64,000 nt of DNA from Eledone cirrhosa (Eukaryota): contig OZ024742.1 in assembly GCA_964016885.1 (NCBI GenBank), positions 307,644,001-307,708,000 of the forward strand, given 5' to 3'. The notes under the pieces are model-generated. The model worked only from the letters and a program-made list of their open reading frames with translations. It searched no databases and had not been told where the DNA came from. Shown piece by piece: positions 9,201-39,120 of the stretch. The first letter of the stretch is position 1; the number at the start of each line of letters is the position of its first letter. The translations under genes and the position numbers were made by a program.

Positions 9201-9698
9201 TAATGTTGAGTTCACTCGTAAATAATAACTGAAAGAAAAAAACATGTGCGAAGATTTAAAATTTAATGCGACGTTTCATTTTTCAGTAACACTTTCAAGA
9301 AAACATTCGTTAATTTCACTGAATGCTGACCTCTAATCAATTAAGCGTCGAATAGTTTATTGACTGCAGGAATTAGATTCTCAGTTGTTATTCAGTATCA
9401 TTCAAATAACTTTATATATGAATGACATTGAAATATATTCGATCTGAAAACCAATAATGAAAGTTTTAAAACTTTTGATTTCGTAATTCTGTAATGGAGC
9501 TTTCATAAGAGACAGTAAGTCTACTTTGCTTGTCTTAGAAATTTCAGGTTGCTTTGAGTTTGAATTTGGAATTATAAAAGACCACTTATGTCAACTATTC
9601 TCCCAGAAGCAAATATGGAACAAATAAATAAAGAAATATTATTATTTTTATTATTCTTTGAGTCTCAGTCATTGATTATTATTATTATTATTATTATT

Positions 9699-12600
9699 AC
9701 AGCTGCATTTATCTTGCTTTATGTTCATACGAGTTATCACCAAGTCACAACCAGTGACCTCAAGAGACAACAAGGTCCGCCATGTTCAAGAAAGAACATA
9801 CATACTCACACATGCATCTTTAGTGTTTAAACTTGTGATGTACTTATATTGACAGAATCTTCCTTAGTATATGGGCAGAGTTCATTAGTACTATCTTTTG
9901 TATTTCTCCTATACGCGGGTTTCCTGGGATTTGCGATAAGTAATCATTAGACCCCTTAGGTATCATTCCTAGAGCGCCTACAACCACTGGTATTGTTTTA
10001 GTTCTCAATTTCCACATTTTTCCAATTTCTATCTCCAGGTCCTTATACTTGCTCAATTTTTCAAATGTTTTTATAGATACATTCTTGTCTATTGGAACGG
10101 ACATATCAATTAGCAAGCATACCCTCTTTTTAAAGTCCTTCAGTATTATATCAGGTCTATTTGCATCTATTTTTCGGTCTGTTTGGATGCTAAAGTTCCA
10201 CAAGATTGAGATGTGATCTTTTTCAAGTATGGGAGGTGGTTGATGCTCCCACCAATTCTTTTGATGGGGCAGGTCAAAATGCTTACACATTATCCAATGT
10301 ATGTATTGTGCAGCTCTGTCATGCCTGTTTAGGTATTCGGTTGGAGCTATAGGACTGCACATTGAAATTATATGGTCAATGGTCTCTGGTTGTTTTTTAC
10401 ATACACGGCATAATGGGCTGCATCCATTTTTTATTATGTTGGCTTGGTAATTTTTTGTTGGCAGACACTGATCTTGTGCTGATATAATCAGTCCTTCAGT
10501 CTCCGATTTCAGTCCAGAGGATGCCAACCACTGATGGGTTAAAGTTTTGTCAACATCAGGATTGTTAGCTCGTTCTGGATATTTTCAATACAGAGGCTTT
10601 TCTTGCCATTTCTTAGCCAGTTTCTGTAGCAGTTCTTTCTTTGCAGTTACTTTTACCTGCTTTGCTTTTTCTGTGTTTTCCATTTCAGCAGTAAATGGGA
10701 CTTCTGAAATGTGTAGTCCATTACTGTATCTTTGTGCATCTTTTGTAATGGAGTATGATCTTTTGATGCTTTCGTGTTTCAAAACGAGTTTGATCATCCA
10801 ATCACGTGATTCCCTTAGATATGTAGATAATCCAATTGTTGCAGTTTTCAACGCAATGTCTAACTGGATTAACCCACGTCCTCCTTCTTTCCTAGGGAGA
10901 TATATTCTATCTGTATCTGCCTTAGGGTGATGCATTCTGTGCATGGTTAAGAATTTTCGAATTTTTGTATCGAGCCTACGGATCTCTGTGCTTGACCAGT
11001 TGATGACATTGTAACTGTAGGTTACTACTGGTATGGCAAGCGTGTTTATGGCATCGATCCTATTCCTTGCATTCAATTCCGTTCTTAAGATTGCTCTTAC
11101 TCTGCGGTAACATTCCTTCCTTATCCTTTCCCTCATTGTCGAGTGCTTGATTCCGTCTCCTTCACAAACACCTAGATATTTGTAAGTTTCCACTTGATCA
11201 AGTTCTCTTATCACATTCCCTCGATCAAGATTAATGTCTGAACTTTTCAGCAGCTTTCCTCTGGTGAACGTTGTTTTGGTGCATTTATCTAGTCCAAACT
11301 CCATTTTAATGTCATCACTGAACTGCTCCACAGTGGATAATAGCCCTTGCAATTGTTCATTATTTTTTGCAAATAGTTTCAGGTCATCCATGTAGAACAA
11401 GTGATTAATGGTTTTGTCATAGACTCTATATCCATGTTTTGTTTCATTGAGCATTTTACTTAATGGTATAAGTGCGATGCAGAATAAAAGTGGTGATAAA
11501 GAGTCACCCTGAAAAATTCCACAATTAATATTAACTTCTCCAGCTTCCAGTGATTTTGTTTCACTATTCATAAGGAGTGTCGTTTTCCATATCTTCATAC
11601 TGAATGACAAAAATCTCCTGACAACGGGGGATATTTTGAAAATCTCTAAACATTTTTCAATCCAACTGTGTGGCAAACTATCGAATGATTTTTTATAATC
11701 TATCCAAGCAATTGATAGGTTTTTGTGTCTATTTTGACAAACTTCCAGTATCATTTTGTTAACCAAAAGCTGACCCTTACAGCCATATGAGCCTCGTTTA
11801 CACCCTTTCTGCTCAACGGGAAATAGGTCATTTGTTATCAGGTGGTCATATGTATATTCAGTTAGGACTGATGTTAAAATTTTATACATTGTGGTCAAGC
11901 AAGTTATCGGTCTGTAATTTTTGGGATTGTTTGTCTCATCATTCTTCGGAAGAAGGAATGTAATGCCGTTAACTAGCCATGATGGTATCTTTTCTGGCTC
12001 CTTAACTATTTCATTGTAAATTTGGGCTAACAGCTCATGAGACTCTGTGAAGGCATTTATCCAAAAATTTTGTATTTTGTCTTTTCCTGGGGATTTCCAT
12101 TTACTGGTTTTTCTTAGAGCCAAACGCAACTGTTCAACTGTTATATTTTCCCATATTTGTTCCTCAAGGTGAGCTGTATCTTTCATTTGTCTGTCTATCC
12201 ATGGGGCATGTATATTATGAACTTTTTCTTCGGCCCAGATCTTTTCCCAGATATCTTGCACTTCCTCCTTGGGTGGTATTGATTTAGCAGTTATTGTTGA
12301 CTTACCAATTTTTCTGTAGAAGTTTCTTTGGTTGGGTTTGAACATATTATTGTCCTTATAGAATCTAGATCGTTTTTCAAAACGCCTTATACGAGCAGCT
12401 TTGGCCGACACTTTTTGCTTGATTATTTCTATCATCATGTCTATGTCACTTGTTGGTTTTATACTGTACTTTCTTTTCAATTTTCTAAGTTTAGTTTGTT
12501 TAACATGTTCACCTACTTTATAGTTTTTTAAAATTTCTATGTCAGATCGGAGAAGGTTTATTTGGCGATTGATGTTCTCTTGCCAAGTAGATTTCTTGTG

Positions 12601-13690
12601 GGAATTCCTTTATTTTTTCATCTTCACTCCACATAAGTGAGTGGTGACTTTAGCCAATGCATAATAGAGATGATTTAAATCAGTAATGTTTAGTGTGTTT
12701 GTGATGATAATGTTTTTGATAATTATGTTAGTCTTGTGTATTATCTTTTGGTTCTGTTTGGAGTTCTGGATCTTAGGGAAGGTGTCTCGTTTCCCCATGT
12801 CAGATTCTTTCATTTTCATCCATTCGATCATAATTTCATCCTTCAAGTTAGCAAGTTCATTCTCATTCATTTCTTTATCATTTACGATCTCATTGTTTTC
12901 ATTTGGAGTTTCATCTTGAGCATGCACTCCCTCCACTTTTTCGATCCTTTCTTTAATTTGTTCTGTTGTCAGTGATTCCGCCCCAACCCTGGGATTCGAA
13001 GTGTTACAATTTACCTCGTTTTCACTGACACATGTTTCATTTTCCCTTCGCTGACTTTGTGCTTGATCTGATCAATTTCTATATCAGTTAGTAACTTTTT
13101 TTTTTACAATACTTCTTCGTATATTGACTAGTTTGTTACTGTCAATATAGCCTCTGTTTTCGGGATGTTTCTTTTTCCATTTGATATATGTCTGTTCTGT
13201 ATTCGATGTATTTGATGGGTAGTACATCGCAGTGTAGAAAGCCTCAAGGACTTCTTTATTATCTTCCCTTGACCATTTTTCTCTCTTTTTCTTTGGATTT
13301 CTTGGTGGTGAGCATGGAGGGCCAATAGTAGGAGTATTCCGGTTATGGGAGGTCTCCAGCTCCAAAGTGATGGGAAGGTTTGAACCATTAGCTGATTTTT
13401 CGACCCCAGTCTGGTTCCTCTCTGAGGGACGCAGCCCTTTTTTACCCGGGTGACGGCCGATCCGGTATGAGATTTTATCATTAGAAATTTACTTTATTTT
13501 GTCGCGTTTTATCCTTATCCGCCAAGGGGTAATCATTTCGTGTTACCACTTCTAGAACGAGTGTCAACCAAGACTAGAGGGGTCGTTCTCCCCTAGAGAC
13601 ACGGCTATTCCCCGCCGGCCGCCATCCCGGTATTTCTTGGTCGCGGGGTTTTCTTTTTTGTTGTTTTTTAAATTGTTATTATCATGAGTG
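9699..13690 (-). mobile_element. R4/Dong-clade non-LTR retrotransposon, family A (defective)
   Basis: Single RT-REL ORF broken by stops and frameshifts. The 3' end abuts (TAA)n at 9675-9698. Confidence 0.92.
9844..13481 (-). pseudogene. R4-type RT + CCHC + REL endonuclease polyprotein (fragments 13084-13365, 12610-12936, 10585-12480, 9844-10527)
   Basis: YRPITCL, EQKGC, WIDYKK.FD, GIFQGDSLSPLLF, FYMDDLKL, YKYLG, GGRGL, ETEG.IISAQDQ, CRVC..ETIDHI..C, RHD, NRPDI..D, K.SKY. Confidence 0.92.
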
Positions 13691-13699
13691 GTTCCTTAA

Positions 13700-15284
13700 T
13701 GTGAGCATTGCGTGGTTTAAGAATGAAATTATTAATAATTGTCTCCACTCCAGACACAAGGCCAGCAATTACCCAGTGCATTACAATAATACAATATACA
13801 TTTTGCTGAAGTTGCCTGTTATTGTTGTTGGCTATGTCGGTGGTGGTGCTGGGGCTTTTTATATTGTTGGTGGGGAAGGGGGAGCCAGCAGTGCCATAGT
13901 TGCGGACGTTTGGCCGGTGGCCTGGTCACTAAGTCAATCTATTTATATCTTTTGCTAGCCTCTCCCTTGTCTAGTGATACCGCCACCTTCCCCTTTCTTA
14001 AGTTAACAGAAGGTAATGGGGAATAGTGGTGGTAGCAATGACGGAGTGGTGGCGGCGGTGATGGGATAGTGGTGGCGGCGGTGGCGTTGTCGTTACTGAG
14101 TTTTGTTGAATAGACTGTATTTTTGTTTGATCTGTAGTATCTATGCGTTTGTGTCGCGTATGTTTAATATATGTGTTGACATATTCTCTTAATATTGGAA
14201 TTAACATTTTGTTAAAACTTGAAACAATAATAATAGTAATTATTATTATGATGCTGGGATTGGTGGTGGTGGTGGTGGTGGTGAAATTGCCGTTATCTGG
14301 CTGTTGTATTTAGTGTACACAGCGGGGTGATGGGGTAGGTAGTGTATCTAGTTTCTGGTGTTGGTGAAATTGCTGTTATTTGGCTGTTCTATATAGTATA
14401 GACAGAGGGGGTTTTCTTCCATTTATAACCATTTTCTTTTTTGAATATAAAATGTATAATACAAAATTGAATATTTGAGCGATATAACAATATATTATGG
14501 ATCTGAATTTTTATGAGACTTGATTCCGTGCTTTATGCATCATTTGTACTGGCCAGGTCACTAAGTCAATCTATTTATATCTTTTGCTAGCCTCTCCCTT
14601 GTCTAGTGATACCGCCACCTTCCCCTTTCTTAAGTTAACAGGGGAATAGTGGTGGTAGCAATGATGGATGGAGTGGTGGCGGCGGTGGCGTTGTCGTTAC
14701 TGAGTTTTTTTTTTATATGTAGTATCTATGCGTTTGTGTCGCGTATGTTTAATATCTGTGTTGAATAGACTAGTTTTGTTTGATCTGTAGTATCTATGCG
14801 TTTGTCCCGCGTATGTTTAATATATGCGTTGGGATATTCCTGTAAAATTGGAATTAAACATTCTGTTAAAACTTGAGACAATAATAATAGTAATTATTAT
14901 TATGATGCTGGGATTGGTGGTGGTGGTGGTGAAATTGCCGTTATCTGGCTGTTATATTTAGTGTACACAGTGGGGTGATGGGGTAGGTGGTGTATCAAGT
15001 TTCTGGTGTTGGTGAAATTGCTGTTATTTGGCTGTTCTATATAGTGTAGACAGAGGGAGTTTTCTTCCATTTATAACCATTTTCTTTTTTGAATATAAAA
15101 TATATAATACAAAATTGAATATTTGAGCGATATAACAATATATTATGGATCCGAAATTTTATGAGACTTGATTCGGTGGTTTATGCATTATTTGTACTAA
15201 GAACTGTTATTTCACAATTGATTTAAATATGTTAAAAATCAAAAACTTAGGGGAGCGATTTCATGACCTTCTACCACCACGTGC
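13700..15284 (-). mobile_element. 5' leader module A upstream of R4 element A, with ~630 bp internal tandem duplication
   Basis: 13918-14549 is similar to 14550-15198. The module is homologous to 19320-20247 and starts directly after a (TAA)n(GAA)n tract. Confidence 0.75.
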
Positions 15285-15364
15285 TTCTTCTTCTTCTTCT
15301 TCTTCTTCTTCTTCTTCTTCTTCTTCTTCTTCTTCTTCTTCTTCTTCTTCTTCTTCTTCTTCTT

Positions 15365-15395
<31 letters not shown>

Positions 15396-15433
15396 TTATT
15401 ATTATTATTATTATTATTATTGTTATTGTTATT
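15285..15433. repeat. (TTC)n-(TTA)n compound microsatellite at element junction
   Basis: Direct reading. Confidence 0.97.
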
Positions 15434-18400
15434 CCTTGAATCTCAGTCATTGATGTTGGTTAACTGGAAAGTCCGTTGGATTGAATATCAAGCCACTACC
15501 TGCAGCCTCAGATATTCAGGACGTATCGGAGGGTTCTTGCCGTTCCAAGCAAGCATGCCTTTTGAAGCGTTCCAAAAAGCGTGAAGGGGCCGATTTTCTT
15601 TAACCATCCCTGGAAACCTTTGGAGATAGTCCCCAGTGCGCCTATGACAATCGGGATCACTTTGACTTCATGGCAGTTCCAAATCCTTTTCACCTCCCAC
15701 TTTAGGTCCTGGTATCGGTTAATTTTCTCCCTCTCCTTCTCTTGCACTCTCGTGTCGAACGGGCAGGCCACATCCACAATCAGGCACGATCTTTTTTCTT
15801 TGTCCACAACCACCAGGTCAGGTCTATTGTGTTCCAGTTTTTTGTCCGTCTGTATCCTAAAATCCCACAGCACCTTCACCTGACTGTTCTCCATCACCGC
15901 CTCTGGCCTATGCTCATACCATTTCTCAGAATGTGGTAGATTGTTTACTTTGCACAGGTGCCAGTGGATCACCCTGCCCATCACATCGTGTCTCCAGCCC
16001 TTATAGTGGGTCTGGGCTAGGTGTTTACACTCGGACACAATGTGAGCCACAGTCTCCTCTCTCTCTCCACAGATCCTGCACAGTGGGCTAGCCTCCTCCT
16101 TGTAGATATGGTGCTTCAACCACTTCGTTTTGAGGGCCTGCTCCTGCGCAGCCATTAGCATTCCTTCTGTAGCCTTTTTGAGGTCTCCTCTTCTCAACCA
16201 GTTCCATGTCTGTGGATCTCTAAATTCAGTTTTCTCAAAGAAGGTACTATGAAGGGATTTTCCCTTAAGGCTGCTCTTCCTCCTTGATGTTATTTCCTCC
16301 TTGGGTATCCCCTGGCCTACTGTCCCCTCCTTCAGTACAGCTTTGAGCATTGGCTCCTTACTATAGGTCACGTATTTGTATAGGTTGTTTTTCTCCATCT
16401 GAACACAGTCCTCTATGCTGATAAGACCTCTTCCACCCTCAGATCTCCTTAGGTAGAGTCTATCGACATCACTCCTCTTGTGGAACATGTTGTAGATAGT
16501 CAATAGCTTCCTAGTCTTCCTATCCATTTCTTTTTGTTCAGCAACATTCCATCTCAGAATTCCCGCACTGTACCTAATAATAGACACAGCTCGGGAATTT
16601 ACTGCGCTTATGGCATTTCTGCTGTTCAGATGTGACTTCAATACGCTCCTTACTCTCCGAATGTATTCAGTTCTTAACAATTCCTTCATTTTTTTGTTCT
16701 TTATGCCATCAGCCTCCAGAACGCCCAAATACTTGTATCCTTCCTCAGAGTCAATTTCCTTTATCATCTCACCTGTTGGTATCTGGATCCCGTTACTTCT
16801 GCTCAACCTACCCCTCCTCATCACAATGACTCCACATTTACCAATACCAAACTGCATACATATATCACTGCTGAAAATACGGACAGTGTCAACAAGCACA
16901 TCCAACTCCTTCTCACTTTTCCCGAAGAGCTTAAGATCGTCCATGAAGAGGAGGTGATTGATGGTAAGCTCTCCCCTTCCCAACTTGTATCCTGCTCTCA
17001 CTTTTCGCAGCATAATGGTCAAGGGCATCAGGGCAAGGACAAACAACAGAGGGGACAGGCTATCTCCCTGGAAGATACCTCTCTTGATCTTCACGCTTCC
17101 CAAGGATACTCCAGTTGATGTCAACTCTGTCTCCCAGGACCCCATACTCCTGCCCAGCAACTGTCTGATGTTATCTGCCACCCTGAAGATCTCCAGGCTT
17201 TTGGTGATCCAGGAATGAGGCACCATGTCAAATGCCTTTCTGTAGTCTATCCATCCCATGGCAAGATCAGTGTGTCTCCTCCTGCAATTCCCCATTACCA
17301 TCTTATCAATAAGCAACTGGTCCTTTGTACCACGTGACTTCTTTCGGCATCCTTTCTGTTCGTCCGGCAACAAGTTGTTTGTGTGGAGGTGATGGTAGAT
17401 TTCCTCAGACACAATGCTCGTCAACAGTTTCCACATTACGGGCAGACATGTGATAGGTCTATAGTTGGTAACATCATTACCCTTGATTCGGTCTTTCATT
17501 ATCAGAACTGTGGTACCTTTTGTCAACCACTCTGGCACCTCACCCGACACCAAGCAGTCATTGAACATGGCCGTCAGCTTCGGGTGGAGGGATGTTAAAT
17601 GTTTAATCCAATACCCCTGCACACCATCTGGGCCTGGTGATTTCCAGTTGGTTAGTTTTTTGGCTTGCCCCTTAAGAGTTTCAACTGTGATACTCAAATC
17701 AGTCTGTTGCTGTGCCTGCTCACCGATCTCCCTCTGTACTGTCTCAATCCACCCTGCCTGGGCATTGTGTCTAACATCCTGCTCCCATATTCCTCTCCAG
17801 AATGTTTTAGCTTGTTCCGCCCCAGGGATCAAGTCGTTGCCTCTTTCTTTCCCCTCAAGCTGTCCAAACAGCATCTTCTGGTTGTTGTCGAACATGACTC
17901 TGTTCTCGTATCGCCTGATTTTGGCACTCTTTGCTACAATGCGTTGCTTCAATTCCTCTATGATAATATTTAGCTTTTTACTCCTAGTTTTGTATTTTAT
18001 TTCCAGTCTATTTTTAGTGCCTATGTTTTTTAGTGTCCCATTCAGTAGTGACTCAAGCTTTCCTATGTCATTTCTCATTTCCCCGATTTGCCCACTCAGT
18101 CGCTTCTTCCACCACGGCTCTGCTCTTTCTTGTCTGTTGTTTCCTCTCGCTTTTATACCAAGTAGTTTCCTCACCGTATTTGCTGTTGCTTTGAGGATAT
18201 TGTTGCACTGGTGAAGACTCCTCGCCTCAAGGTATGGGATGACTTTGTTTACCTTAGCTGTTGTTTCTTTTAACTTTTTCCTGTCTACAAATCTTAGGTT
18301 CATAGGTCTCCCACTATCATTGTTCAACTCATCTACCACTAAATTTAGGATGTCAACCGAATCTTGTCCTATCCCGTCAGCATTCATCTCCTCAGTGGCC

Positions 18401-19320
18401 GTATCTCTGTTCCAGGTATTATTTATCTCAGTATTCAGATCATTGTCTGCTTCGGGTGGTTCCTCCGTTCTCAGGACCTCCTCACCTTCATTTCCCGCCG
18501 GCTCGCTTGTCTGGCATACTACACCCGCCATCTCCAAGCCATTCTCTCTGCTCAGTTCCTCCAGTTCCAGCTCGCTTATCCACCCATTAGTTCTTATTAC
18601 CCGAGCCTGCCCGGCCAATTTTTGTTCATCTAATTTAAATAAACCAATCTCGTTCCAGATGTTATGCATCCGTCTCCTGTAGCCCCTCTCCTTGGGGTTA
18701 CTTTTCAGGTAGCATTGCATAACAGTTCTATTCAATTCTTTCGTCCAGTTGGTTCTGGCCCCTTTCCTTCTTCTTCTTCCTCCAACATCAGCAGTATTTG
18801 GTTGACAGTCAGGTTCCTGCTGCTGAGCCAGGGGGCACCTGTTGGGTGAGAGTCTGTCACATGACGTTCTAGTCTCCATTTCACCGTTATTCGAACTGTT
18901 TATGTTCGATATTTAAACACTCTTATCGAGGATTGGCGAATGTATGTTTACATAGCCATCTGTGGATCCGCCATCCCACTTGGCCCTTGTGTGGCATTAT
19001 CACCACGCTGTATACGGACACACATAAACAAACAAACACACGGGCAGAAAGGGCCCCAAAAATGAATAAGCATAAGTTTCATTGTAATGTAGTATTCGAA
19101 TGTCTGACTTAGTTTTTGTTTTTTAAGTTTTACTTTTTCCCCCCTCTTCTCTGTCCGTCCGCCTGCTTCTCTCTTCATTCTTATTTTCTTTACGTTTTTG
19201 GGGTTTCTTTTTTTGTTTTTGTTTTTCTCTGTTTTTCTCGTTTTTTACTGTTGTTGCTGTGCTGCTTTTGTTGTTTGTTTTTTCTTTTTTCTTTTGAGTC
19301 TATCTATATATTTTGATGCC
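15434..19320 (-). mobile_element. R4/Dong-clade non-LTR retrotransposon, family B (open ORF)
   Basis: Uninterrupted 1123-aa ORF with a short 3'UTR ending in a (TAA)n-like tract. Confidence 0.93.
15508..18879 (-). CDS. R4-type reverse transcriptase / zinc-finger / REL endonuclease polyprotein
   Basis: N-terminal WTKELN..VM.CY, YRPITCL, EQKGCRK.SRGTKDQLLID, WIDYRKAFD, QGDSLSPLLF, FMDDLKL, CRIC..ETVAHI..C, RHD, RPDLV..D. Confidence 0.95.
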   Translation of the reverse strand: METRTSCDRLSPNRCPLAQQQEPDCQPNTADVGGRRRRKGARTNWTKELNRTVMQCYLKSNPKERGYRRRMHNIWNEIGLFKLDEQKLAGQARVIRTNGWISELELEELSRENGLEMAGVVCQTSEPAGNEGEEVLRTEEPPEADNDLNTEINNTWNRDTATEEMNADGIGQDSVDILNLVVDELNNDSGRPMNLRFVDRKKLKETTAKVNKVIPYLEARSLHQCNNILKATANTVRKLLGIKARGNNRQERAEPWWKKRLSGQIGEMRNDIGKLESLLNGTLKNIGTKNRLEIKYKTRSKKLNIIIEELKQRIVAKSAKIRRYENRVMFDNNQKMLFGQLEGKERGNDLIPGAEQAKTFWRGIWEQDVRHNAQAGWIETVQREIGEQAQQQTDLSITVETLKGQAKKLTNWKSPGPDGVQGYWIKHLTSLHPKLTAMFNDCLVSGEVPEWLTKGTTVLIMKDRIKGNDVTNYRPITCLPVMWKLLTSIVSEEIYHHLHTNNLLPDEQKGCRKKSRGTKDQLLIDKMVMGNCRRRHTDLAMGWIDYRKAFDMVPHSWITKSLEIFRVADNIRQLLGRSMGSWETELTSTGVSLGSVKIKRGIFQGDSLSPLLFVLALMPLTIMLRKVRAGYKLGRGELTINHLLFMDDLKLFGKSEKELDVLVDTVRIFSSDICMQFGIGKCGVIVMRRGRLSRSNGIQIPTGEMIKEIDSEEGYKYLGVLEADGIKNKKMKELLRTEYIRRVRSVLKSHLNSRNAISAVNSRAVSIIRYSAGILRWNVAEQKEMDRKTRKLLTIYNMFHKRSDVDRLYLRRSEGGRGLISIEDCVQMEKNNLYKYVTYSKEPMLKAVLKEGTVGQGIPKEEITSRRKSSLKGKSLHSTFFEKTEFRDPQTWNWLRRGDLKKATEGMLMAAQEQALKTKWLKHHIYKEEASPLCRICGEREETVAHIVSECKHLAQTHYKGWRHDVMGRVIHWHLCKVNNLPHSEKWYEHRPEAVMENSQVKVLWDFRIQTDKKLEHNRPDLVVVDKEKRSCLIVDVACPFDTRVQEKEREKINRYQDLKWEVKRIWNCHEVKVIPIVIGALGTISKGFQGWLKKIGPFTLFGTLQKACLLGTARTLRYVLNI

Positions 19321-20247: not shown

Positions 20248-20494
20248 TCTTCTTCTTCTTCTTCTTATTATTATTATTATTGAATGCCATGGTTGACGGA
20301 GGCTCGGCTCTGTAAGTATAGTAATTTTTAACCGTTAAAACAATTGTAAATTGTTTAAAACTTGAACCAAATTGTTGATAAAGACACCCTCCTCCTCGTG
20401 AGAGGGGTCTTTCTGTCCGTTATTTGGCCCTTCGGGGTTAAATAACCAGTTATTGGGGTTTTGTACCCAATATTCATTTTAAACAAAAAACAAC

Positions 20495-26306: not shown

Positions 26307-26347
<41 letters not shown>

Positions 26348-26564
26348 GGCGACCTACGTAGTAAATCGTATCATCGTGAGCTCCGCAAAGGTTTGTTATT
26401 TTCAGTTATTTAAAATTGCCATTTATGGAAAATTTTTATTGTTAACTATATATAAGTGCACATACATTGATTTCTGAAAAGGACCCTCAAAATTATTGGG
26501 GCCTTGATCCCAAAATTTAAACTTTTTATAATTATCAAACAAAAAAATTTTTATTTAAAAAATA

Positions 26565-28485: not shown

Positions 28486-28519
28486 GTGGTCTTTCCCATC
28501 TTTTCCACTCCTTTTCAAC

Positions 28520-31500
28520 ATGACCTCACTCAGAATAGGCAGCATAAATGCGCGTGGCTTGGGGTCGTCATGGATGCAGGGCCACCTGCTCAACGACCTC
28601 AGGTCACTAAACATAGATGTAGTGGCCATCAGCGAGACCAGAATCTCCGAAGCACAGGCTTTCGCACCGATCTTCGGCGGCTACGATGTGTACGCATCTC
28701 CCAGCCGTCCGGGATCGGGGGGGGGGGAGGAGTTGCTGTGCTTTTTCGGAGAGGTTTGGATCTTGCCATACGGGCCATCTTCCTGGACCCAGAAGGTAAG
28801 TTGGTGGTGCTGGACGTGACCAGCGGAGACGGGTAAGCTTTCAGGTTAGTGGCCGTCTATGCCCCGACAGGAGCAGGGCGGCCTGATTTCTTCCGGCGTC
28901 TGGAGACCTTTCTTGGAACGTCCCGCTCTTTAGTGTTAGTGGGCGACTGGAACGGGATCTTAGATGCACGCTGGGATTGTGTGGTATTAGTGGATAGGGA
29001 AGGAGGGTGCAAGAGTCTCACCAACCTGCTCAGACGTTTTGAACTGTCTGACAGGTACCGAATGGATTTCCCGAATGTACCAATGTGGACTTGGACAAAT
29101 CGCATAGGGTCATCCAGATCATATCTAGATAGAGTATTTTGTAGGGAAATAGATAGGTCTAGCATAGGCTGTCCACAATTCAAGATAGTCAGCTACACGG
29201 ACCACAAATTCGTGATCTGATAGGCTCCATAGACGAGGACCCGGCTACTGGAAGCTAAACGCGTCCTTACCAGCGCGCAAGGCCTACAGAGACCGGATTA
29301 GCGAACTAGTTAAGCGGGCGTTGACGGGGGCCATCGTCAACAACAAATGGTGGTTTGCTCTGAAAAGAGCAATTAGAATAGAGTCCATTAGGTTTAGTAA
29401 GACTTTAGCAATAGAGAAAAATAGAGCAGAGGGAGAATTAGTTAGAAAATTAGATGAGGCGCTTAGCAAAGGCATCGCGACCGACGTACTTGCGGCGAAA
29501 TTGGCCCTTGACAAATTCTTCAATGCAAAGCACGAAGGCTGCGTTGTCAGAGCTAGGGTGCGTGCTCTCAGACACGAGGGGACAAAAGCCGTTCAATGGG
29601 CCCGAGTGGCGGAGGCGCGTCGTGGCAACAAAGCCACGATCCGGTCTTTGGTGGACCGGATCGAGGGATGGACTTTAGTGTCTACCTCGACGGACTGCCG
29701 CGGCTTTCGGCCACTGAGGCGGAGTGTTGCGAAAAGCCGATAACAACCGCTGAAGTACGGGATGCAATGACTAGTTGCACAAGGGGTAAATCGCCTGGTT
29801 TGGATGGTCTGCCCTATGAACTTTACGTACAAATGCCAAACTTGTTCGGAGGCCTCTTGGCGGACGTCTACTGCAACTGGCAACAGAACGGGAGAATTCC
29901 CAGCTCTGTGAGCCGAGGAGCGGTGGCGCTGCTGAGAAAGGATCCGAACAAGGGGGATAACATAGATAATTTTAGGCCCATAACTCTGCTAAACAAGATT
30001 TTGGCCAAGGTGCTAGCAAAGAGGTTGGCGCTTGTCGTTGGTGGTCTGATGGGAGAGGCACAGACATGCGCCATTCCCGACAGATCCATCCACGACAACC
30101 TCCACCTCATGCGATACATCGTAGAGAGGGTAGCTAGGGAACCTGGCACTGGTGGGTCTTGGATCAATTTAGATCAGTCGAAAGCCTTCGATAGGGTCGA
30201 CCATCGTTACCTAGCGGCAGTCCTGAGGGCGGCTGGCTTTGGGCCCGTCTTCAGAGGCTGGATCGCTGCCATGCACAGCGACATCTGCTCTGTAATGAGA
30301 GTGAACGGTCACCTTTCGGAACCGTTCAACATCATGCGCTCGGTCCGCCAAGGATGTCCCCTCTCGTCCCTATTGTACGTATTGACTCTCGAGCCATTAC
30401 TGCACAAACGGGAGACGTTGAGGGGGGTCCCGCGCGAACTAGGATGCGGCAGATCCGTGTCAGTATATGCCGACGATGTCACCGTAGTGGTGTCGAACGC
30501 CAAACACATCGAGGCGATCGGCACTACACTAAGAGAATACGAAGCGGTGACAGGAGCAATGATCAACCAGGAAAAGTCAGTGGGCCTGCAGCTCGGCACC
30601 TGGAGAGGCAGGTCCATGCCGTCCAACAGTGTCGTCGGGCGCTGGACGGACGGACCGGTTAAATTGCTAGGGGTCTGGTTCGGTCCAGACCTCCAGACGG
30701 ACAAAAACTGGGACGAGGTGACGAGCAGGGTGGCTTCTCTAACCCAGAAATGGGCCGAGAGGAAGCTATCCCTGAAAGGTCGAGCGGAGGTGGCGAATGC
30801 GTACATCGCATCCGTCATCTACTACCGCCTGACCGTCATATCTTGTCCTAAGCCTCGCCTGACTGCGCTGGAGCGTTTGCTCTTCCGCTTCTTGTGGAAG
30901 GGACGCGCTCCGATGGTCAGGCGGTCCATCTGCTGTCAACACCCGCTACGTGGAGGGCTGGGCATGCCGTGCCTGATGATGCGCAGACACGCGCTCAGGC
31001 TACGACATCTCCACCTCTTCCCCGACGGTGATCAGGTGTGGTCGCCGTTTGCTAGACACGTTTTTCCCCAGCTCGTCTCCTTGACGGAGCTGCAGTCCTG
31101 GGTCAAGCGAAGACCGAGAGGGAGCGCTTGGGGACGGGAATGTCTTCAGGCGCTCACAGCCCTCGACCAATCGGGCAATGTGATCGGTGGAAACTCCAAC
31201 TTGGCGTTCTATAGGGGATTAGTGGAGGGGAAGAGCGACGACGTACTTGGAGAAACTCTAGGCGTCGACGAAAATAAACTAGCCAATCTCTTCGGAAGGA
31301 CTTTCGGGCCGGGGCCTATGGACAACTACCAGAAATCCCTGGCCTGGCAGTGCTACCGAGGAGCTTTGCCAGTTTTGGATAAACTCTACAGGCATGGAGG
31401 TGCCGTCAGCCGGGCATGTCCGAGATGCGCGCAGGGCGACGAAACCGTCCTGCACGCACTCGTCCAGTGTCCGAGCATTGCTGACTTGTGGGTTTATGTC

Positions 31501-31833
31501 GAACACCTGCTGTCACGTGTAAGACGGATCCAGCTATCAGCTGAGTCCATCGTGAGGATTGCCCCGCCCCCTTCCTTTAGCCGGGAAGGGCAGGCAGTTT
31601 TTATCTGTCTGGTGGCCATGGCGAAAGAGATAGTATGGTGGACACGTTTGAAAGGGCTGAAGACGAGCACTTACCTCTTCGGTGATGCCCTGATTAACTT
31701 TTTCAAATTTCATTTGAAAAGGAAAATCAGGGTAGAGAGGGAAGTGCTCTCTTCCCAGCATTTTGTTGAAAGATGGGTGAGAGAAGCAAGTATGGCCCGA
31801 ATGAATGGGCCTTCTCTGAGTATGTGTCTGTAA
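28520..31833 (+). pseudogene. ORF2 (APE-RT), with frameshifts, a stop at ~28834 and deletions near 29218 and 29657
   Basis: ORF track fragments are collinear with the copy 1 ORF2; YADD present. Confidence 0.92.
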
Positions 31834-32076
31834 ATTAAAGGTGGAAAACTGGGAGAGGGCACTTGCCCTGGTGGTCAGGGCCACTGTGGTCTTTTAATGG
31901 GCTTTCTCCACAAATGTCCCTCCGAAGTCTCCCCCCTATTGGGGAAGTTTTCTTTGTTATTTTATTTCATCCTCTGTTTTTTTTACACGCAGAAATGCCC
32001 ATTTGTACCGTCCTGTATTGTCCTGTACTGTCCTTAATGTCTACTTTATGTAAACCCTTGTGGTTAATAAAGAAAA

Positions 32077-32116
<40 letters not shown>

Positions 32117-32334
32117 GAATGCTATGGTTGACGGAGGCTCGGCTCTGTAAGGTATTGTAAATTTTGAACACTATAACAATTGTAAATTGTTTAAAACTTT
32201 AACGAACTTGTAGACAAAAACACCCTCCTCCTCGTGAGAGGGGTCTTTCTGTCCGCTATTTGGCCCTTCGGGGTTAAATAACAGCTTATTGGGATTTTGT
32301 ACCCAATATTTATTTTAAACAAAAAAAAAACAAC

Positions 32335-34432
32335 ATGGCTACGAAAAAGAAATTTCATAGGTCACTCCCACTCATTCCATCTTCTTCTTCCTCAATCATC
32401 ACTACAGCAGAGAGAAGATTGTCTCTCTCCCTCCCTTCTTTAAATGTGTCTCTCTCCCTCCCTTCTCTTTCGCAAGCGACGAAAGAAAAGAAAAGTCTCG
32501 TGCAAAGCGTGCAAGGTTTCTCCACGACGACGACGACAGCGACGAAACACGTGTGCGGGAAATACGAAAATCCAGTTCATTCGTCTGACGTCAGGAATAA
32601 TAGCAGTAGCAGCCGTAATAACAACAGCAACAGTGACAATGAAAACAACAGTAGCAGCCGCAACAGCATCACCAGCAGCATAAACAACAACAGCATTAGC
32701 AGCAGCAACACCAACAACAACCACAGCAACAGCGGCGTAGGCAGTAGTCGTAGTACCTGCAGCAACAACAAAAGTACCAGCAGCTCTGACGACAACAACA
32801 ACAGCAGCAAAGAAAAACCAATCTCATTTGCAGGTATTGCGAAAAACTTGGAAACAATCCTCATAACAAATGAGGAATTAGAGGAAACGAAGAAGATGGT
32901 GACAACGACTGGACACCGAGCAATCTGCAAGGCAGCGGAAAATTTTTTCGAAACCCAACAGCACTGTACGGTCACGTACCGTACAGTAAGTACAAAATCC
33001 CGTAGGGTGGAAAGAGCCACAGAGGCTCAAATACAAAAACCCTTGGGGTCTGTGTGGCAGCGGAAAACGCACATCACCCGAGGCAAAAAATATGCCACCG
33101 TAGACGTACTTTTTGCCACACCCCAGGAGGCAAAGGCCCAATCCGTAGTGACCCTAAGGAGCGAGGACATGGTGTTGGTGCCCTCCTACTGCGGGCAAAA
33201 AATTGTGAGGGTCAAACTGACCCCCCCCCCCCGGGATGGCCCCTTCTTGGCTGGCCGCGTCTGTCCTCGTCGGAATCGAGGACAAAACAACTGTACTGCA
33301 AGTACAGAAAAAAGTAAGAGAAGATTGGGTCGGCACCTCCATTGAGATGCTAATCCAAACCAACCAGGAGTGCATCGAAGCTATCCCGGATGTGATAGAC
33401 TTCGATAACGGCACTCAACTGCCCATAAGTGTTGAGGGAAAACGCCCGAAATGCTTTCGCTGTGGATCGAAGACTCACCTCAGGGCCTTCTGCAACGAGA
33501 AGACCATGAGAAAGGAGAAAACCCCCCTCCTTCCGAAACCGGCTCCACGGCTACCAGCAACAGGACAAGCGGCAACCAGGAACGATAGGTCCGTGGCACC
33601 CATACCCACGCCACGGAAATCAAAAACAGCAGCAGCAGTGGAAATATTAACAACAACAACAGCAATACCAAATGCAGCTGCAACAGAGACTCCAGTGCAA
33701 ACATCACCAACAACAACAAGTGAAAGAGTGGAGCTGGTACCCCTCCCCGACCTCACAGAATCAGACATGGAGTGTGAGGTGGGAGAGAGATGGCAAAAGG
33801 TCGTAAGAAGGCACAAACGCAGAAGCAGCGCATCGTCGCCTTTGAAAAGGGAGGAAAGAAATGAGAAAAGGGTAAAGTCTACTGCAAAGAGACCCACAGC
33901 AGCAACACCACCAACACCATCACCACCCACACTAGCACCACCATCACCACCGGCGACAACCCCACCGCCAACAACACCTTCAACACCACCACCACAAGCA
34001 CCAACATCGCAAACACAACAACAAAACACACACACCCAGCAACAACGACAAGAAAATAGCAGAACCACACCCCACCCCCAGAAAAACAAATGCACGGCAA
34101 TAAATACACACAACAAGAAACTAATGACTTACATAATTGAACACACAAACATTTCACAGCACGACTACATAATACCAGCACCAATCAAAACGCCAACTAA
34201 CATAAGACTGCTAAAAATAGCACAGAAACAATACACAAACATTAAAACGAAATTCCCCAACGCAGTTGGTGATTTCAGGGACCTAGGAGGAACTTTCAAT
34301 CGAAGAGTATATTCAGACATTCTCATAGAAGAGCCGACGACCAGCCGAAGAGACGATTCAACGGTCCCTTCACCAGACGATCAAGTGAAAAGGGATGTAA
34401 AAACCATCCCTCCTCTACGAAAAGTACGGTAA
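32335..34432 (+). pseudogene. ORF1 alpha with frameshift at poly-C ~33221-33232
   Basis: Two ORF-track fragments match the copy 1 ORF1. Confidence 0.9.
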
Positions 34433-34467
34433 GTGGTCTTTCCCATCTTTTCCACTCTATTTTAAAC

Positions 34468-37400
34468 ATGACCTCACTCAGAATAGGCAGCATAAATGCG
34501 CGTGGCTTGGGGTCGTCATGGAAGCAGGGTCACCTGCTCAACGACCTAAGGTCACTAAACATAGATGTAGTGGCCATCAGCGAGACCAGAATCTCCGAAG
34601 CACGGGCCTTCGCACCGATCTTCGGCGGCTACGATGTGTACGCATCTCCCAGCCGTCCGGGATCGGGGGGAGGAGTTGCTGTGCTTTTTCGGAGAGGTTT
34701 GGATCTCGCCATACGGGCCATCTTCCTGGACCCAGAGGGTAAGCTGGTGGTGCTGGACGTGACCAGCGGAGACGGGCAAGCTTTCAGGCTAGTGGCCGTC
34801 TATGCCCCGACAGGAGCAGGGCGGCCTGATTTCTTCCGGCGTCTGGAGACCTTTCTTGGAATGTCCCGCTCTTTAGTGTTAGTGGGCGACTGGAACGGGA
34901 TCTTAGATGCACGCTGGGACTGTGTGGGATTAGCGGATAGGGGTGGAGGGTGCAAGAGCCTCACCAACCTGCTCAGGCGTTTTGAACTGTCTGACAGGTA
35001 CCGATTGGATTTCCCGAATGTGCCAATGGGAACTTGGACAAATCGCATAGGGCCATCCAGATCATATCTAGATAGAGTATTTTGTAGGGAAATAGATAGG
35101 TCTAGCATAGGCTGTCCACAATTCAAGATAGTCAGCTACACGGACCACAAATTCGTGATCTGCGTGCTTGACTTAGATAGGCTTCATAGACGAGGACCCG
35201 GCTACTGGAAACTAAACGCATCCTTACCAGCGCGCAAGGCCTACAGAGACCGGATTAGCGAACTAGTTAAGCGGGCGTTGACGGGGGCCATCGTCAACAA
35301 CAAGTGGTGGTTTGCTCTGAAAAGAGCAATTAGAATAGAGTCCATTAGGTTTAGTAAGACTTTAGCAATAGAGAAAAATAGAGCAGAGGGAGAATTAGTT
35401 AGAAAATTAGATGAGGCGCTTAGCAAAGGCATCGCGACCGACATACTTGCGGCGAAATTGGCCCTTGACCAATGCAAAGCACGAAGGCTGCGTTGTCAGA
35501 GCTAGGATGCGTGCTCTCAGACACGAGGTGACGAAAACCGTTCAATGGGCCCGAGTGGTGGAGGCGCGTCGTGGCAACAAAGCCACGATCCGGTCTTTGG
35601 TGGACCACGACGGGCGCATGCTACTCGATCCCGGGCAAATGTGTGAAGCTTTTCAGCGACACTTCGCTCAGCTGTTCGGGGGCAGTGGTGGGCCGGGTCG
35701 AGGGATGGACTTTAGTGTCTACCTCGACGGACTGCCGCGGCTCTCGGCCACTGAGGCGAGGTGTTGCGAAAAGCCGATAACAGCCGCTGAAGTAAGGGAG
35801 GCAATGACTGGCTGCACAAGTGCTAAATCGCCTGGTTTGGATGGTGTGCCCTATGAACTTTACGTACAGATGCCAGACTTGTTCGGAGGCCTCTTGGCGG
35901 ACGTCTACTGCAACTGGCAACAGAACGGGAGAATTCCCAGTTCTGTGAGCCGAGGAGCGGTGGCACTGCTGAGAAAGGATCCGAACAAGGGGGATAACAT
36001 AGATAATTTCCGGCCCATAACTCTGCTAAACACAGAGTTCAAGATTTTGGCCAAGGTGCTAGCAAAGAGGTTGGCGCTTGTCGTTGGTGGTCTGGTGGGA
36101 GAGGCGCAGACATGCGCCATTCCCGACAGATCCATCCACGACAACCTCCACCTCATGCGATACATCGTAGAGAGGGTAGCTAAGGAACCTGGCACGAGTG
36201 GGTCCTTGATCAATTTAGATCAGTCGAAAGCTTTCGATAGGGTCGACCATCGTTACCTAGCGGCAGTCCTGAGGGCGGCTGGCTTTGGGCCCGTCTTCAG
36301 AGGCTGGATCGCTGCCATGCACAGCGACATCTGCTCGGTGGTTAGAGTGAACGGTCACCTGTCGGAACCGTTCAACATCATGCGCTCGGTCCGCCAAGGA
36401 TGTCCCCTCTCGTCCCTCTTGTACGTATTGACTCTCGAGCCATTACTGCACAAACTGGAGACGTTGAGGGACGTCCCGCGCGAACTAGGATGCGGAAGAT
36501 CCGTGTCAGCATATGCGGACGATGTCACCGTAGTGGTGTCGAACGCCAAACACATCGAGGCGATCGGCACTACACTAAGAGAATACAAAGCGGTGACAGG
36601 AGCAATGATCAACCAGAAAAAGTCATTGAGCCTGCAGCTCGGCACCTGGAGAAGCAGGTCCATGCCGTCCAACAGCGTCGTCGGACGCTGGACGGACGGA
36701 CTGGTTAAATTGCTAGGGGTCTGGTTCGGTCCGGACCTCCAGACGGACAAAAACTGGGACGAGGTGACGAGCAGGGTGGCTTCTCTCACCCAGAAATGGG
36801 CGGAGAGGAAGCTATCCCTGAAAGGTCTAGCGGAGGTGGCGAACGCGTACATCGCGTCTGTCATCTGCTACCGCCTGACCGTCGTACCTTGTCCTAAGCC
36901 TCGCCTGACTGCGCTGGAGCGTTTGCTCTTTCGCTTTTTGTGGAAGGGACGCGCTCCGATGGTCAGGCGGTCCATCTGTTGTCAACACCCGCTACGTGGA
37001 GGGCTGGGCATGCACGCTGATGATGCGCAGGCACGCGCTCAGGCTACGACATCTCCACCTCTTCCTCGACGGTGATCAGGTGTGGTCGCCGTTTGCTAGA
37101 CACGTATTTCCCCAGCTCGTTTCCTTGACGGAGCTGCAGTCCTGGGTCAAGCGAAGACCGAGAGGGAGCGCCTGGAGACTGGAATGTCTTCAGGCGCTCA
37201 CAGCCCTCGACCAATCGGGCAATGTGATCGGTGGAAATCCACCTCGGCGTTCTATAGAGGATTAGTGGAGAGGAAGAGCGACGACGTACTTGGGGAAACT
37301 CTAGGCGTCGACGAAAATCAACTAGCCAATCTCTTCGGAAGAACTTTCGGGCCAGGGCCTATGGACAACTTCCAGAAATCTCTGGCCTGGAAGTGCTACC

Positions 37401-37876
37401 GAGGAGCCTTGCCAGTTCGGGATAAACTCTACAGGCATGGAGGTGCCGTCAGCCGGGCATGTCCGAGATGCGCGCAGGGCGACGAAACCGTCCTGCACGC
37501 ACTCGTCCAGTGTCCGAGCATTGCTGACTTGTGGGTTTATGTCGAACACCTGCTGTCGCGTTTAGGACGGATCCGGCTATCATCTGAGTCCATCGTGAGG
37601 ATTGCCCCGCCCTCCTCCTTTAGCCGGGAAGGGCAGGCAGTTTTTATCTGTCTGGTAGCCATTGCGAAAGAGATAGTATGGTGGACACGTTTGAAAGGGC
37701 TGAAGACGAGCACTTACCTCTTCGGTGATGCTCTGATTGACTTTTTCAAATTTCATTTGAAAAGGAAAATCAGAGTAGAGAGGGAAGTGCTCTCTTCCCA
37801 GCATTTTGTTGAAAGATGGGTGAGAGAAGCAAGAATGGCCCGAGTGAATGGGCCTACTCTGAGTATATATCTGTAA
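34468..37876 (+). pseudogene. ORF2 (APE-RT) with three frameshifts (~35470, ~37015, ~37238)
   Basis: Collinear fragments of 345, 554, 89 and 230 aa match copy 1. Confidence 0.92.
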
Positions 37877-38145
37877 ATTAAAGGTGGAAAACTGGGAGAG
37901 GGCACTTGCCTTGGTGGTCAGGGTCATTGTGGCTTTTTACTGGGCTTTCTCCACAAATGTCCCTCCGAAGTCTCCCCCCTATTGGGGAATTTTTCATTGT
38001 TATTTTTTGTTACACCCTCTGTTTTTTTTTTTTTGTTTTTTTTTTTGTTTTTTTACACGCAGAAATGCCCATTTGTACCGTCCTGTATTGTCCTGCACTG
38101 TCCTTAATGTCTACTTTATGTAAACCCTTGTTGTTAATAAAGAAA

Positions 38146-38190
<45 letters not shown>

Positions 38191-39120
38191 GTATCTCTAG
38201 ATATTACGTATAATTTTGCTCCGTAAGTTTTGTTGATTTTCACTTGTTTGCATAACGTTCATTGTTAAAATTATTTTACAAACTGTTAAAGGGGCGCCAT
38301 ACCTTGTCCACAAAAATAGGCACCCACATAATATTTGGACCTTTAGCCCAAATATATGAACTTTAGTTTCTTAATTTTCACACATTTAAGCGTTTTAAAA
38401 AAACGGAGGTGACAAGCTAGTCTTCTTCCAACCACCTGTCACGTGATATTCATTCAATAAAAATATAGGAAAATAAATATCCCACATTATCAGGATTTAA
38501 CACCACCACCACCACCTTCACCATGTCCAGAGAATCAACACAAAAACAAACAAACAAAAACAAACAAATATAATCAAACAGCAAAAATACTAGTACCACC
38601 TTCAGTATCAGCACAATCACCAACTCCACCAACACCATAACAACAAAAAACACTGACATAAATACGAATGTGAACAGCAACAACAGTGACAGAAGGACAG
38701 AAGCAGTAACAACAACATCAACGGTAGGAGCAACAGCAGTAGCAACAAAATTAACTCAAACCTCTCAACCGATTATACCGAAGATACGCCTAGGACAACA
38801 AAATTCGCCTTCGCACACTCGTCGACCGTTCGAGTATTGCTTGTTTGCAGGTTTATTTTGAACATCTGCTGTCACGTGTAGAACGGATCCAGCGATCAGC
38901 TGACTCCAACGGGAAGATTACCCCACCACTTTTCTTTAGCCGGGAAGGGCAGGCAGTTTTGATCTGCCTGGTGGCCATGGCAAAAGAGGTCGTATGGTGA
39001 ACACGCCTGAAAGGGTTGAAGACAAGGACTTTCCTCTTCAGCGAAACCCTGATTTACTTTTCAGGTTTCACTTGAAGAGGAAAATCAGGATGTAGAGAGA
39101 AGTGCTGTTTCTCTTCTAAT
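38191..39120 (+). mobile_element. Internally deleted, older Tx1-like copy 4 (third 5' leader type + diverged ORF2 3' fragment)
   Basis: Starts after (TTA)n with GCTCCGTAAG at +28, followed by a low-complexity ORF1-like stretch. 38845-39115 matches the ORF2 end (AGCCGGGAAGGGCAGGCAGTTTT..TGGTGGCCATGGC). Confidence 0.75.

What the first reader, a model, noticed from the sequence alone, without database searches (positions are those of the whole stretch)
9640..39120. ~30 kb polarised array of two retrotransposon clades sharing one (TTA)n target in opposite orientations
Seen: every junction (9675, 15394, 20265, 26309, 32078, 38148) is a (TTA)n tract. All R4/Dong elements (REL nuclease) lie on the minus strand and end in (TAA)n, while all Tx1 elements (APE nuclease) lie on the plus strand and end in (TTA)n. 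The two blocks meet head-to-head at 20247-20282. Known: Dong targets TAA repeats, Tx1 families Kibi/Koshi target TCC/TTC repeats, and TRAS/SART insert in opposite orientations in TTAGG. Inference: each insertion regenerates its target through its tail, building a self-extending array. I do not recognise a TTA-specific Tx1 family as described.
Basis: partly seen in the sequence, partly recalled or inferred. Interest (0 to 1): 0.75.

Follow-up and report, generated by a model that had tools for sequence, protein, structure and literature searches.

The report
Two LINE clades share ATT repeats
Seven pieces of two unrelated kinds of jumping gene are stacked end to end here at short ATT/TAA repeats, each kind facing its own way as it does at thousands of other places in this genome, likely because their enzymes cut opposite strands of the repeat; the habit is known, but I did not find ATT described as a target for the likely Tx1-type kind.

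Summary
Real and genome-wide, not special to this window. The six (TTA)n junctions are as described. Three Dong/R4-type pieces lie on minus and four L1/Tx1-type pieces on plus. TATTATT directly precedes 1543 of 1577 heads of one Tx1-type subfamily and 2126 of 2240 of another (background 0.07%). All 30 Dong heads examined follow (TAA)n. 5'-truncated Tx1-type copies also favour ATT, but more loosely, so the repeat is a target and not only a tail. The window's copies are closer to copies elsewhere than to each other, so they are independent insertions.

Corrections: the two-block 'polarity' is incidental, since tail-to-tail joints are about as common as head-to-head ones. The last Tx1 remnant has no tail. 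Kibi targets (TC)n, not TCC.

Likely mechanism: APE nicks the AAT strand, RLE the ATT strand, and each insertion leaves repeat on both sides. A tRNA-derived SINE with a Tx1-like 3' end follows the Tx1 polarity. Tx1 membership is likely but was not tested against named references; cleavage is untested. TRAS/SART is the precedent. This scan found the same system many times on other DNA of this genome. New variant of a known kind.

The parts
9640..9675 (-). 36-bp 3' stub of the D2-type Dong family with degenerate (TAA)n
   Evidence: Matches D2-type 3' ends at 97-100% in other loci. A contig of run X1 runs from unique flank to 9666 without differences.
9676..9699 (.). (TTA)8 junction tract
9700..15284 (-). 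Dong/R4-type element D1: full-length head, duplicated 5' UTR unit, single ORF broken by in-frame stops, SINE-like piece at 13723-13784
   Evidence: RT; stop-separated frames of 71/153/674/246 aa in one frame; 38% aa to D2; nearest other copy 98.2%
15285..15433 (.). (TTC)36(TTA)9 plus degenerate TTG/TTA: D1 head expansion and D2 tail
15434..20249 (-). Dong/R4-type element D2, intact 1123-aa ORF (18879-15508): RT (FMDD), CCHC, RHD, PD..D RLE
   Evidence: nearest other copy 99.9%; 1302 first-look candidates for its head
20250..20281 (.). (TTC)5(TTA)5TT head-to-head junction
20282..26309 (+). L1/Tx1-type element a: ORF1 698 aa (20495-22591, one CCHC knuckle), ORF2 1139 aa (22627-26046: APE, RT, zinc finger) with one in-frame stop; AATAAA just before the ATT run
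   Evidence: nearest other copy 99.86% over 1.4 kb; 1577 exact heads genome-wide
26310..26347 (.). (TTA)12TT junction tract
26348..32078 (+). L1/Tx1-type element b: different head and ORF1 (34% aa to a), ORF2 about 95% nt to a, frameshifted
   Evidence: 2240 exact heads genome-wide
32079..32116 (.). (TTA)12TT junction tract
32117..38148 (+). L1/Tx1-type element c, subfamily a, frameshifted
   Evidence: 97% to a; closer to copies elsewhere (98.1%) than to a (97.8%) over 1.4 kb
38149..38190 (.). (TTA)14 junction tract
38191..39108 (+). Old internally deleted Tx1-type remnant d: head and ORF1 start fused to an ORF2 C-terminal piece; no 3' UTR or ATT tail
   Evidence: (78-83% to other copies)

Best explanation
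This is a stack of independently inserted retrotransposons in which an L1/Tx1-type family sits on the (ATT)n strand and Dong/R4-type families sit on the (TAA)n strand of the same microsatellite, likely because the APE nuclease of the first nicks the AAT strand and the RLE nuclease of the second nicks the ATT strand. Shown: flanks, orientation bias, independence of the copies and many intact copies. Inferred: (1) target-primed reverse transcription starts at the nick, probably helped by pairing of the RNA's 3' repeat with the nicked strand; (2) duplication of the tract plus a copied tail leave repeat on both sides, so each insertion adds a landing site; (3) the order of the two kinds within an array is random; (4) the tRNA-headed SINE that ends in (ATT)n is likely moved by Tx1-type enzymes.
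For: TATTATT precedes 1543 of 1577 subfamily-a heads and 2126 of 2240 subfamily-b heads; background is 0.07%. 30 of 30 Dong heads have at least 3 TAA units upstream, and none has more than 1 TTA unit (the set includes the window's own copy and one near-duplicate pair). 5'-truncated copies, which lack the element head: Tx1 9 ATT / 0 TAA / 8 other; Dong 12 TAA / 0 ATT / 7 other, after setting aside 23 and 4 pieces that abut another element piece. Neighbours of 60 full-length-start Tx1a copies: upstream 52 identified, all in the expected polarity (23 Tx1+, 23 Dong-, 6 SINE+); downstream 33 in polarity and 2 against, of 54. Median perfect tract is 24 nt upstream and 42 nt downstream. Window copies are closer to distant copies than to each other. 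ORF2 is open in 30 of 44 full-length copies and both ORFs in 19 of 44; the APE catalytic motifs are present. At least 7 of 40 SINE copies have 15-21-nt duplications at non-repeat sites that begin ATTAT/ATTAA. The SINE 3' end resembles Tx1-type 3' ends (p=0.0005 for two subfamilies, 0.03 for a and b) and not Dong ends (p about 0.9) (tested after I had noticed it). A second, mirror-image stack just right of the window obeys the same rule and has a tail-to-tail joint.
Against: Truncated copies are much less strict. Among the first 30 3' ends on contig C1, 11 truncated sites gave 4 ATT tracts, 4 short ATT sites, 2 TTC tracts and 1 wrong-strand TAA tract. No target duplication could be read for a full-length copy: 1 of 54 shared sequence beyond the perfect run (L093), and variant units upstream of L124, L148 and L149 were not repeated downstream. 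The fixed ATT|G phase of full-length heads could come from RNA rather than target. No empty allele was seen. No cleavage assay. Some of the 60 copies are tandem neighbours, so some joints count twice; 3 of the 60 were picked because they lacked TATTATT.
Confidence: 0.8

Rival explanations
1. The nuclease recognises only a short ATTAT-like site, as the SINE duplications suggest. The long upstream (ATT)n of full-length copies is brought or completed by the RNA, which starts inside the upstream tract and anneals at second-strand synthesis, as upstream-cleaving R2 elements do. The family then creates microsatellites as well as finding them.
For: 95-98% exact ATT|G phase in two subfamilies with different heads. 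Looser truncated junctions. SINE duplications start ATTAT at non-repeat sites. R2 precedent for target sequence in the transcript (PMC3774820, passages).
Against: No full-length copy showed a non-repeat duplication bracketing tract plus element, and none split a Dong body at a short ATTAT site (0 of 54). 6 of 9 truncated junctions with at least 3 ATT units also fit the ATT phase. 52 of 60 copies abut another element's pre-existing tract.
Confidence: 0.3
2. The array arose by local tandem duplication, unequal crossing-over or assembly error rather than by repeated insertion.
For: Elements a and c are 97% identical. Short-read contigs break at the tracts, so the order is not independently confirmed.
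Against: a, b and c are closer to copies elsewhere (99.86, 96.4, 98.1%) than to each other (97.8, 95.7, 95.2%). b has a different head and ORF1, and D1 and D2 are only 38% identical as proteins. The same junction types recur at dozens of loci.
Confidence: 0.05
3. Passive accumulation: insertion is unspecific, and copies survive mainly in repeat-rich neutral DNA.
For: Passive accumulation near CA repeats has been proposed for Waldo-A/B (PMC3812793, passage).
Against: It cannot give base-exact ATT|G junctions in 95-98% of about 3,800 heads, nor strand-specific polarity opposite to Dong.
Confidence: 0.02

Closest known systems
Kibi (TC)n, Koshi (TTC)n and crocodilian (TTCC)n/(TTTC)n families of the Tx1 clade (PMC4494074: abstract, passages, section 15; PMC3812793: passage)
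   Same: Two-ORF APE element of the L1/Tx1 type inserted strand-specifically in a pyrimidine-rich microsatellite.
   Different: Target is (ATT)n. The host is an octopod-like mollusc, not a fish or crocodilian. There are thousands of young copies, and the target is shared with an RLE family. Kinship to Kibi/Koshi is untested.
Dong (Bombyx mori), DongAg, DongBg; R4 clade (PMC3812793 passage; PMC3774820 passages)
   Same: Single ORF with RT, CCHC and RLE, flanked by (TAA)n on its own strand.
   Different: Long (1.4-2 kb) leader with duplicated units, whose first 70-80 nt resemble the Tx1-type heads. My rough HDV-like scan found no ribozyme, whereas B. mori Dong has one.
TRAS and SART in (TTAGG)n (PMC7265360, passages)
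   Same: Two families insert into one repeat in opposite directions, set by their nucleases.
   Different: TRAS and SART are both APE elements (R1 clade, recalled) at telomeres. Here two unrelated nucleases (APE and RLE) share a dispersed trinucleotide repeat.
Tx1-Mar with SINEU (PMC4494074 abstract and passages)
   Same: A SINE shares target and polarity with a Tx1 family, and tandem insertions occur.
   Different: The target there is a Mariner element and the SINE head is U1/U2; here it is a microsatellite and a tRNA-like head.
About 70-bp head shared by Nimb and RTE LINEs and LP-SINEs; 77-bp head of ingi and L1Tc (PMC4758252, section 10)
   Same: Homology between otherwise unrelated LINEs is limited to the first 70-80 nt.
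   Different: Here the two sharers encode different nuclease classes and live in the same arrays.

Membership tests
Tx1 clade (L1 group) | ORF2 with N-terminal APE, RT and C-terminal zinc finger | tested here: met
   Exo_endo_phos, RVT_1, zf-RVT; aligns to the L1 endonuclease with catalytic motifs in place
Tx1 clade (L1 group) | Separate ORF1 with RNA-binding domain and CCHC knuckle(s) (feature recalled) | tested here: inconclusive
   698-aa ORF1 with one CCHC. No RRM/ZCCHC3-type Pfam hit at E<=5. Single-sequence model unusable, pLDDT 35.
Tx1 clade (L1 group) | RT groups with named Tx1, Kibi, Koshi or Keno sequences | tested here: inconclusive
   No named reference was available. The quick tree puts the family with an Argonauta protein, sister to unnamed proteins at about 50%. 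RT is 35% identical to a fish protein with ZCCHC3-type ORF1 domains. Human L1 is the best solved-structure match.
Tx1 clade (L1 group) | Target preference: one sequence type in more than 20% of flanks (criterion of PMC4494074) | tested here: met
   97.8% and 94.9% of heads
Kibi/Koshi | Insertion in (TC)n or (TTC)n | tested here: not met
   Full-length heads follow ATT. TTC directly precedes only 2 of 11 truncated sites.
Dong (R4 clade) | Single ORF with RT, CCHC and PD-(D/E)xK RLE, no APE | tested here: met
Dong (R4 clade) | Flanked by (TAA)n on the sense strand | tested here: met
   30 of 30 heads; 12 of 19 truncated junctions TAA, 0 ATT
Dong (R4 clade) | RT groups with named Dong/R4 sequences | not testable with these tools
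   120 listed homologues carry no family name; R2 proteins are the best solved-structure matches
Dong (R4 clade) | HDV-like ribozyme at the 5' end | tested here: inconclusive
   No Rfam match, no hit with my rough descriptor, which had no positive control, and no consensus fold of the heads
CORE-SINE (octopus OR2 type) | tRNA-like head with A/B boxes and a CORE body | tested here: inconclusive
   A- and B-box-like words are visible in the sequence. The CORE likeness is recalled. PMC4758252 (passage) names OR2 as an octopus CORE SINE; sequences were not compared.

The most novel reading that the evidence does not exclude
An octopod lineage of Tx1-type LINEs has evolved an (ATT)n-specific APE and, with Dong RLE elements and a partner SINE, forms a self-feeding microsatellite guild. 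Each insertion adds target for both clades, most young full-length copies land on other members, and the two unrelated clades share a 70-80-nt head, suggesting promoter exchange between neighbours in these arrays.
Probability: 0.45. Interest if true: 0.62.

Novelty: new variant of a known kind. Interest (0 to 1): 0.45.

Why it matters
It adds a target, (ATT)n, to the short list for microsatellite-specific APE elements. It also extends the TRAS/SART pattern to two unrelated nuclease classes sharing one repeat. With thousands of young copies and 19 of 44 sampled full-length copies open in both ORFs, the specificity is directly testable by nuclease assay or domain swap. It gives a mechanism for LINE stacks of tens of kilobases in octopod genomes, where Dong-R4 and L1-Tx1 are known to be recently active (PMC13282606) but the word 'target' does not occur in that paper's main text. 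It is not a new kind of system, and the window is one of many such arrays.

Tried and rejected
Block polarisation as a rule: rejected (p=0.41; the chance of DDDTTTT by random order is 1 in 35, and the window was picked from many arrays). Growth from the centre: the two youngest copies (D2 and a, 99.9%) are central and the oldest (d) is at the right end, but b and c are not in order and b's subfamily is under-sampled; not claimed. Target-site duplication of full-length Tx1: not resolvable inside the tract. Search with the D2 3' end in the genome returned nothing, probably filtered as too common. Search with a C-terminal ORF2 piece gave only full-length-like copies and added no clear truncated junction. 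Ribozyme or structured RNA in the heads: no Rfam hit above chance, no descriptor hit, no consensus pairs. ORF1 fold: pLDDT 35, no fold search run; the Atlas gave no answer. NCBIfam added nothing. Cluster look-up gave no family names. The careful tree did not finish; only the quick tree is reported. Sequencing runs: no RNA holder listed. Contigs cover both unique flanks without differences but break at the tracts and may come from the source sample, so they neither confirm the order nor show an empty allele. Genome-wide counts of head-to-head against tail-to-tail joints were not obtained; the sample counts stand instead. Literature searches for an ATT/TAA-specific Tx1 family listed none. Repbase, Kojima and Fujiwara 2004, and Fig. 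3 and the supplements of PMC4494074 could not be seen and may name such a family.
Full report
Setting. The window is G000:C3:307644001-307708000 of a 3.0-Gb animal genome. A named close homologue of the Tx1-type ORF2 is an Argonauta hians protein, 73% over the RT, so the host is likely an octopod.

Observation. The six perfect (TTA)n runs are at the stated places. From left to right the array holds a 36-bp Dong-type 3' stub (9640-9675, minus), D1 (9700-15284, minus, in-frame stops) and D2 (15434-20249, minus, intact 1123-aa ORF). Then come Tx1-type a (20282-26309, one stop in ORF2), b (26348-32078, other head and ORF1), c (32117-38148) and remnant d (38191-~39108), all on plus. D2 has RT, CCHC, RHD and a PD..D stretch that aligns with the R2 nuclease. 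Element a has an APE with its catalytic motifs, RT and a zinc finger. Both Dong heads carry (GAA)n expansions, seen as TTC runs; the usual head is AGGGAAGAA, and similar expansions occur in 3 of the other 29 loci. Remnant d has no tail, so the array's right end has no tract.

Is ATT a target? Exact-pattern counts over the whole genome gave 1577 subfamily-a heads, 1543 of them (97.8%) directly behind TATTATT. For subfamily b the figures are 2240 and 2126 (94.9%). The 7-mer's background in the window's other DNA is 51 of 68,800. There are 6117 exact 3' ends. All 30 best-matching a heads examined, including the window's own, follow (ATT)n, and all 30 Dong heads follow (TAA)n. Truncated copies lack the head, so their flank must be target. 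Over all loci then held, Tx1-type junctions were 9 ATT, 0 TAA and 8 other, and Dong junctions 12 TAA, 0 ATT and 7 other, after setting aside 23 and 4 pieces that abut another element piece. In the first 30 3' ends on C1, 14 had a 5' break within 1.5 kb. Two of these were internal and two were one duplicated site, which leaves 11 sites: 4 ATT tracts, 4 short ATT sites, 2 TTC tracts and 1 wrong-strand TAA. The preference is therefore real, but looser than the full-length figure suggests.

Polarity and order. I fetched 60 copies from their heads: the first 57 rows plus 3 chosen for lacking TATTATT. Upstream neighbours were 23 Tx1 tails (plus), 23 Dong 5' ends (minus), 6 SINE tails (plus) and 8 unidentified, with none against the rule. 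Of 54 copies with a 3' end, downstream neighbours were 15 Dong tails, 16 Tx1 heads, 2 SINEs, 2 against the rule (L117, L133) and 19 unidentified, two of which proved on inspection to be Tx1-type heads. Some copies are tandem neighbours, so some joints count twice. Upstream and downstream class are not associated (8/5/4/6, p=0.41), so blocks are not the rule. A mirror-image stack just beyond the window's right end (SINE-, D2+, D1+, Tx1b-, joined by TAA runs) follows the same polarity and has a tail-to-tail joint.

Origin of the array. Over the last 1.4 kb of ORF2, a, b and c match copies elsewhere at 99.86, 96.4 and 98.1%, but each other at 97.8, 95.7 and 95.2%. This fits separate insertions of different ages, not local duplication. 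Contigs of run X1 match both unique flanks without differences but break at the tracts and may be the source sample, so the order rests on the assembly. Of 44 full-length copies, 30 have an open ORF2, 23 an open ORF1 and 19 both; the family is young and probably active.

Mechanism. By the established TPRT model, an element ending in (ATT)n and flanked by ATT is primed from a nick in the AAT strand, and Dong from a nick in the ATT strand. That the nuclease sets target choice is stated for Tx1 in PMC4494074 (passage) and shown by domain swap for TRAS/SART (PMC7265360, passages). Perfect tracts are a median 24 nt upstream and 42 nt downstream, with few below 18 nt upstream. One tract thus becomes two, which gives a branching process (inferred). 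The cut site cannot be read inside the repeat: only L093 repeats a variant unit on both sides, and L124, L148 and L149 do not. The SINE offers an indirect view. At least 7 of 40 copies have 15-21-nt duplications starting ATTAT or ATTAA at non-repeat sites. Its last 25 nt resemble Tx1-type 3' ends (p=0.0005 for two subfamilies, 0.03 for a and b, 0.10 for a fifth) and not Dong ends (tested after the fact). Other LINEs, such as RTE, were not tested as partners. The main open alternative is that the RNA supplies part of the upstream ATT run. The fixed ATT|G phase favours it; the lack of any non-repeat duplication or split Dong body among 54 copies, and the ATT phase in 6 of 9 truncated junctions, argue against it as the whole story.

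Shared heads. I noted and then tested a likeness between the first 80 nt of Dong and Tx1-type heads, around GCTC(C)GTAAG and a T-rich run. Against shuffles, p was at most 0.006 for 9 of 12 pairs. Among 12,784 real 80-mers of the window, the best non-Dong match of the D2 head is head a (score 50; 99th percentile 31), and all four Tx1 heads are among the top nine non-Dong places. Unrelated A+T-rich places score 35-44, so the margin is modest. The heads align but share no fold. A shared promoter module is a likely reading; PMC4758252 (section 10) gives precedents.

Comparison with what is known. Dong targets TAA, Kibi (TC)n and Koshi (TTC)n (PMC3812793, passage; PMC4494074, abstract, passages, section 15). 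Crocodilian Tx1 families prefer (TTCC)n and (TTTC)n. 'ATT' and 'TAA' do not occur in the main text of PMC4494074, but its Fig. 3 and supplements could not be seen. TRAS and SART enter TTAGG in opposite directions (PMC7265360, passages). Octopus repeat papers list Dong-R4 and L1-Tx1 as abundant or active without targets (PMC13282606 and PMC8967140, passages). PMC3774820, PMC4640811, PMC3747384 and PMC5786205 were seen as passages only. Eight searches listed no ATT-specific Tx1 family; subscription papers and Repbase are outside the library. No named Tx1 or Dong reference could be placed in the tree, so the clade names are likely, not proven.

Earlier notes of this scan describe the same system, the partner SINE and the shared head on other DNA of this genome. 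I had reached the target-and-polarity reading; the notes named the SINE as a likely partner before I tested it, and they are not independent support.

Verdict. A real, genome-wide, strand-specific sharing of one microsatellite by an APE and an RLE clade; the window is an ordinary example. New variant of a known kind; interest 0.45.

Noticed in passing
window 20170-20249(-), 15205-15284(-), 20282-20361, 26348-26427, 32117-32196, 38191-38270: The first 70-80 nt of Dong and Tx1-type elements resemble each other (GCTC(C)GTAAG, which looks like a splice donor, then a T-rich run); possibly a shared promoter module.
   Followed up: partly
window 1223-1411, 43227-43380, 47460-47580, 54109-54310, 54904-55090, 58318-58504, 61265-61456, 62707-62899, 63797-63947: tRNA-headed SINE of about 190 bp ending in (ATT)n, with 15-21-nt duplications starting ATTAT; its 3' end resembles Tx1-type 3' ends.
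   Followed up: partly
window 63587-64000 and L211 (window-equivalent 63797-65870): Second, mirror-image stack: SINE(-), truncated D2(+), truncated D1(+), truncated Tx1b(-), joined by (TAA)n.
   Followed up: yes
window 62999-63587(-): Old RLE-type remnant, 33-40% aa to D2, whose truncated 5' end abuts (CAA)n(TAA)n, the opposite polarity to Dong; perhaps another family.
   Followed up: no
window 48462-52799: Penelope-like element by eye: minus-strand frames 48928-52179 with a weak RT hit and a GIY-YIG-like end, between direct repeats 48462-48716 and 52536-52799 (96%).
   Followed up: no
window 2563-5360: 490-bp inverted repeats at 99.8% identity (2563-3052, 4871-5360) around minus-strand frames 3564-4882 that look like the end of a Penelope-type ORF; no Pfam hit.
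   Followed up: no
window 13918-15198 and 19449-20098: Tandemly duplicated units (about 640 and 330 bp) in the 5' leaders of D1 and D2.
   Followed up: no
window 13723-13784; L021: A SINE-like 3' piece inside the D1 leader is also present in another D1-type copy, so it is likely inherited within the family.
   Followed up: partly
L034, L053, L056, L120, L129: At least two further Tx1-type subfamilies with different heads also start right after (ATT)n; L034, L053 and L056 lead into an ORF1 like that of a.
   Followed up: partly
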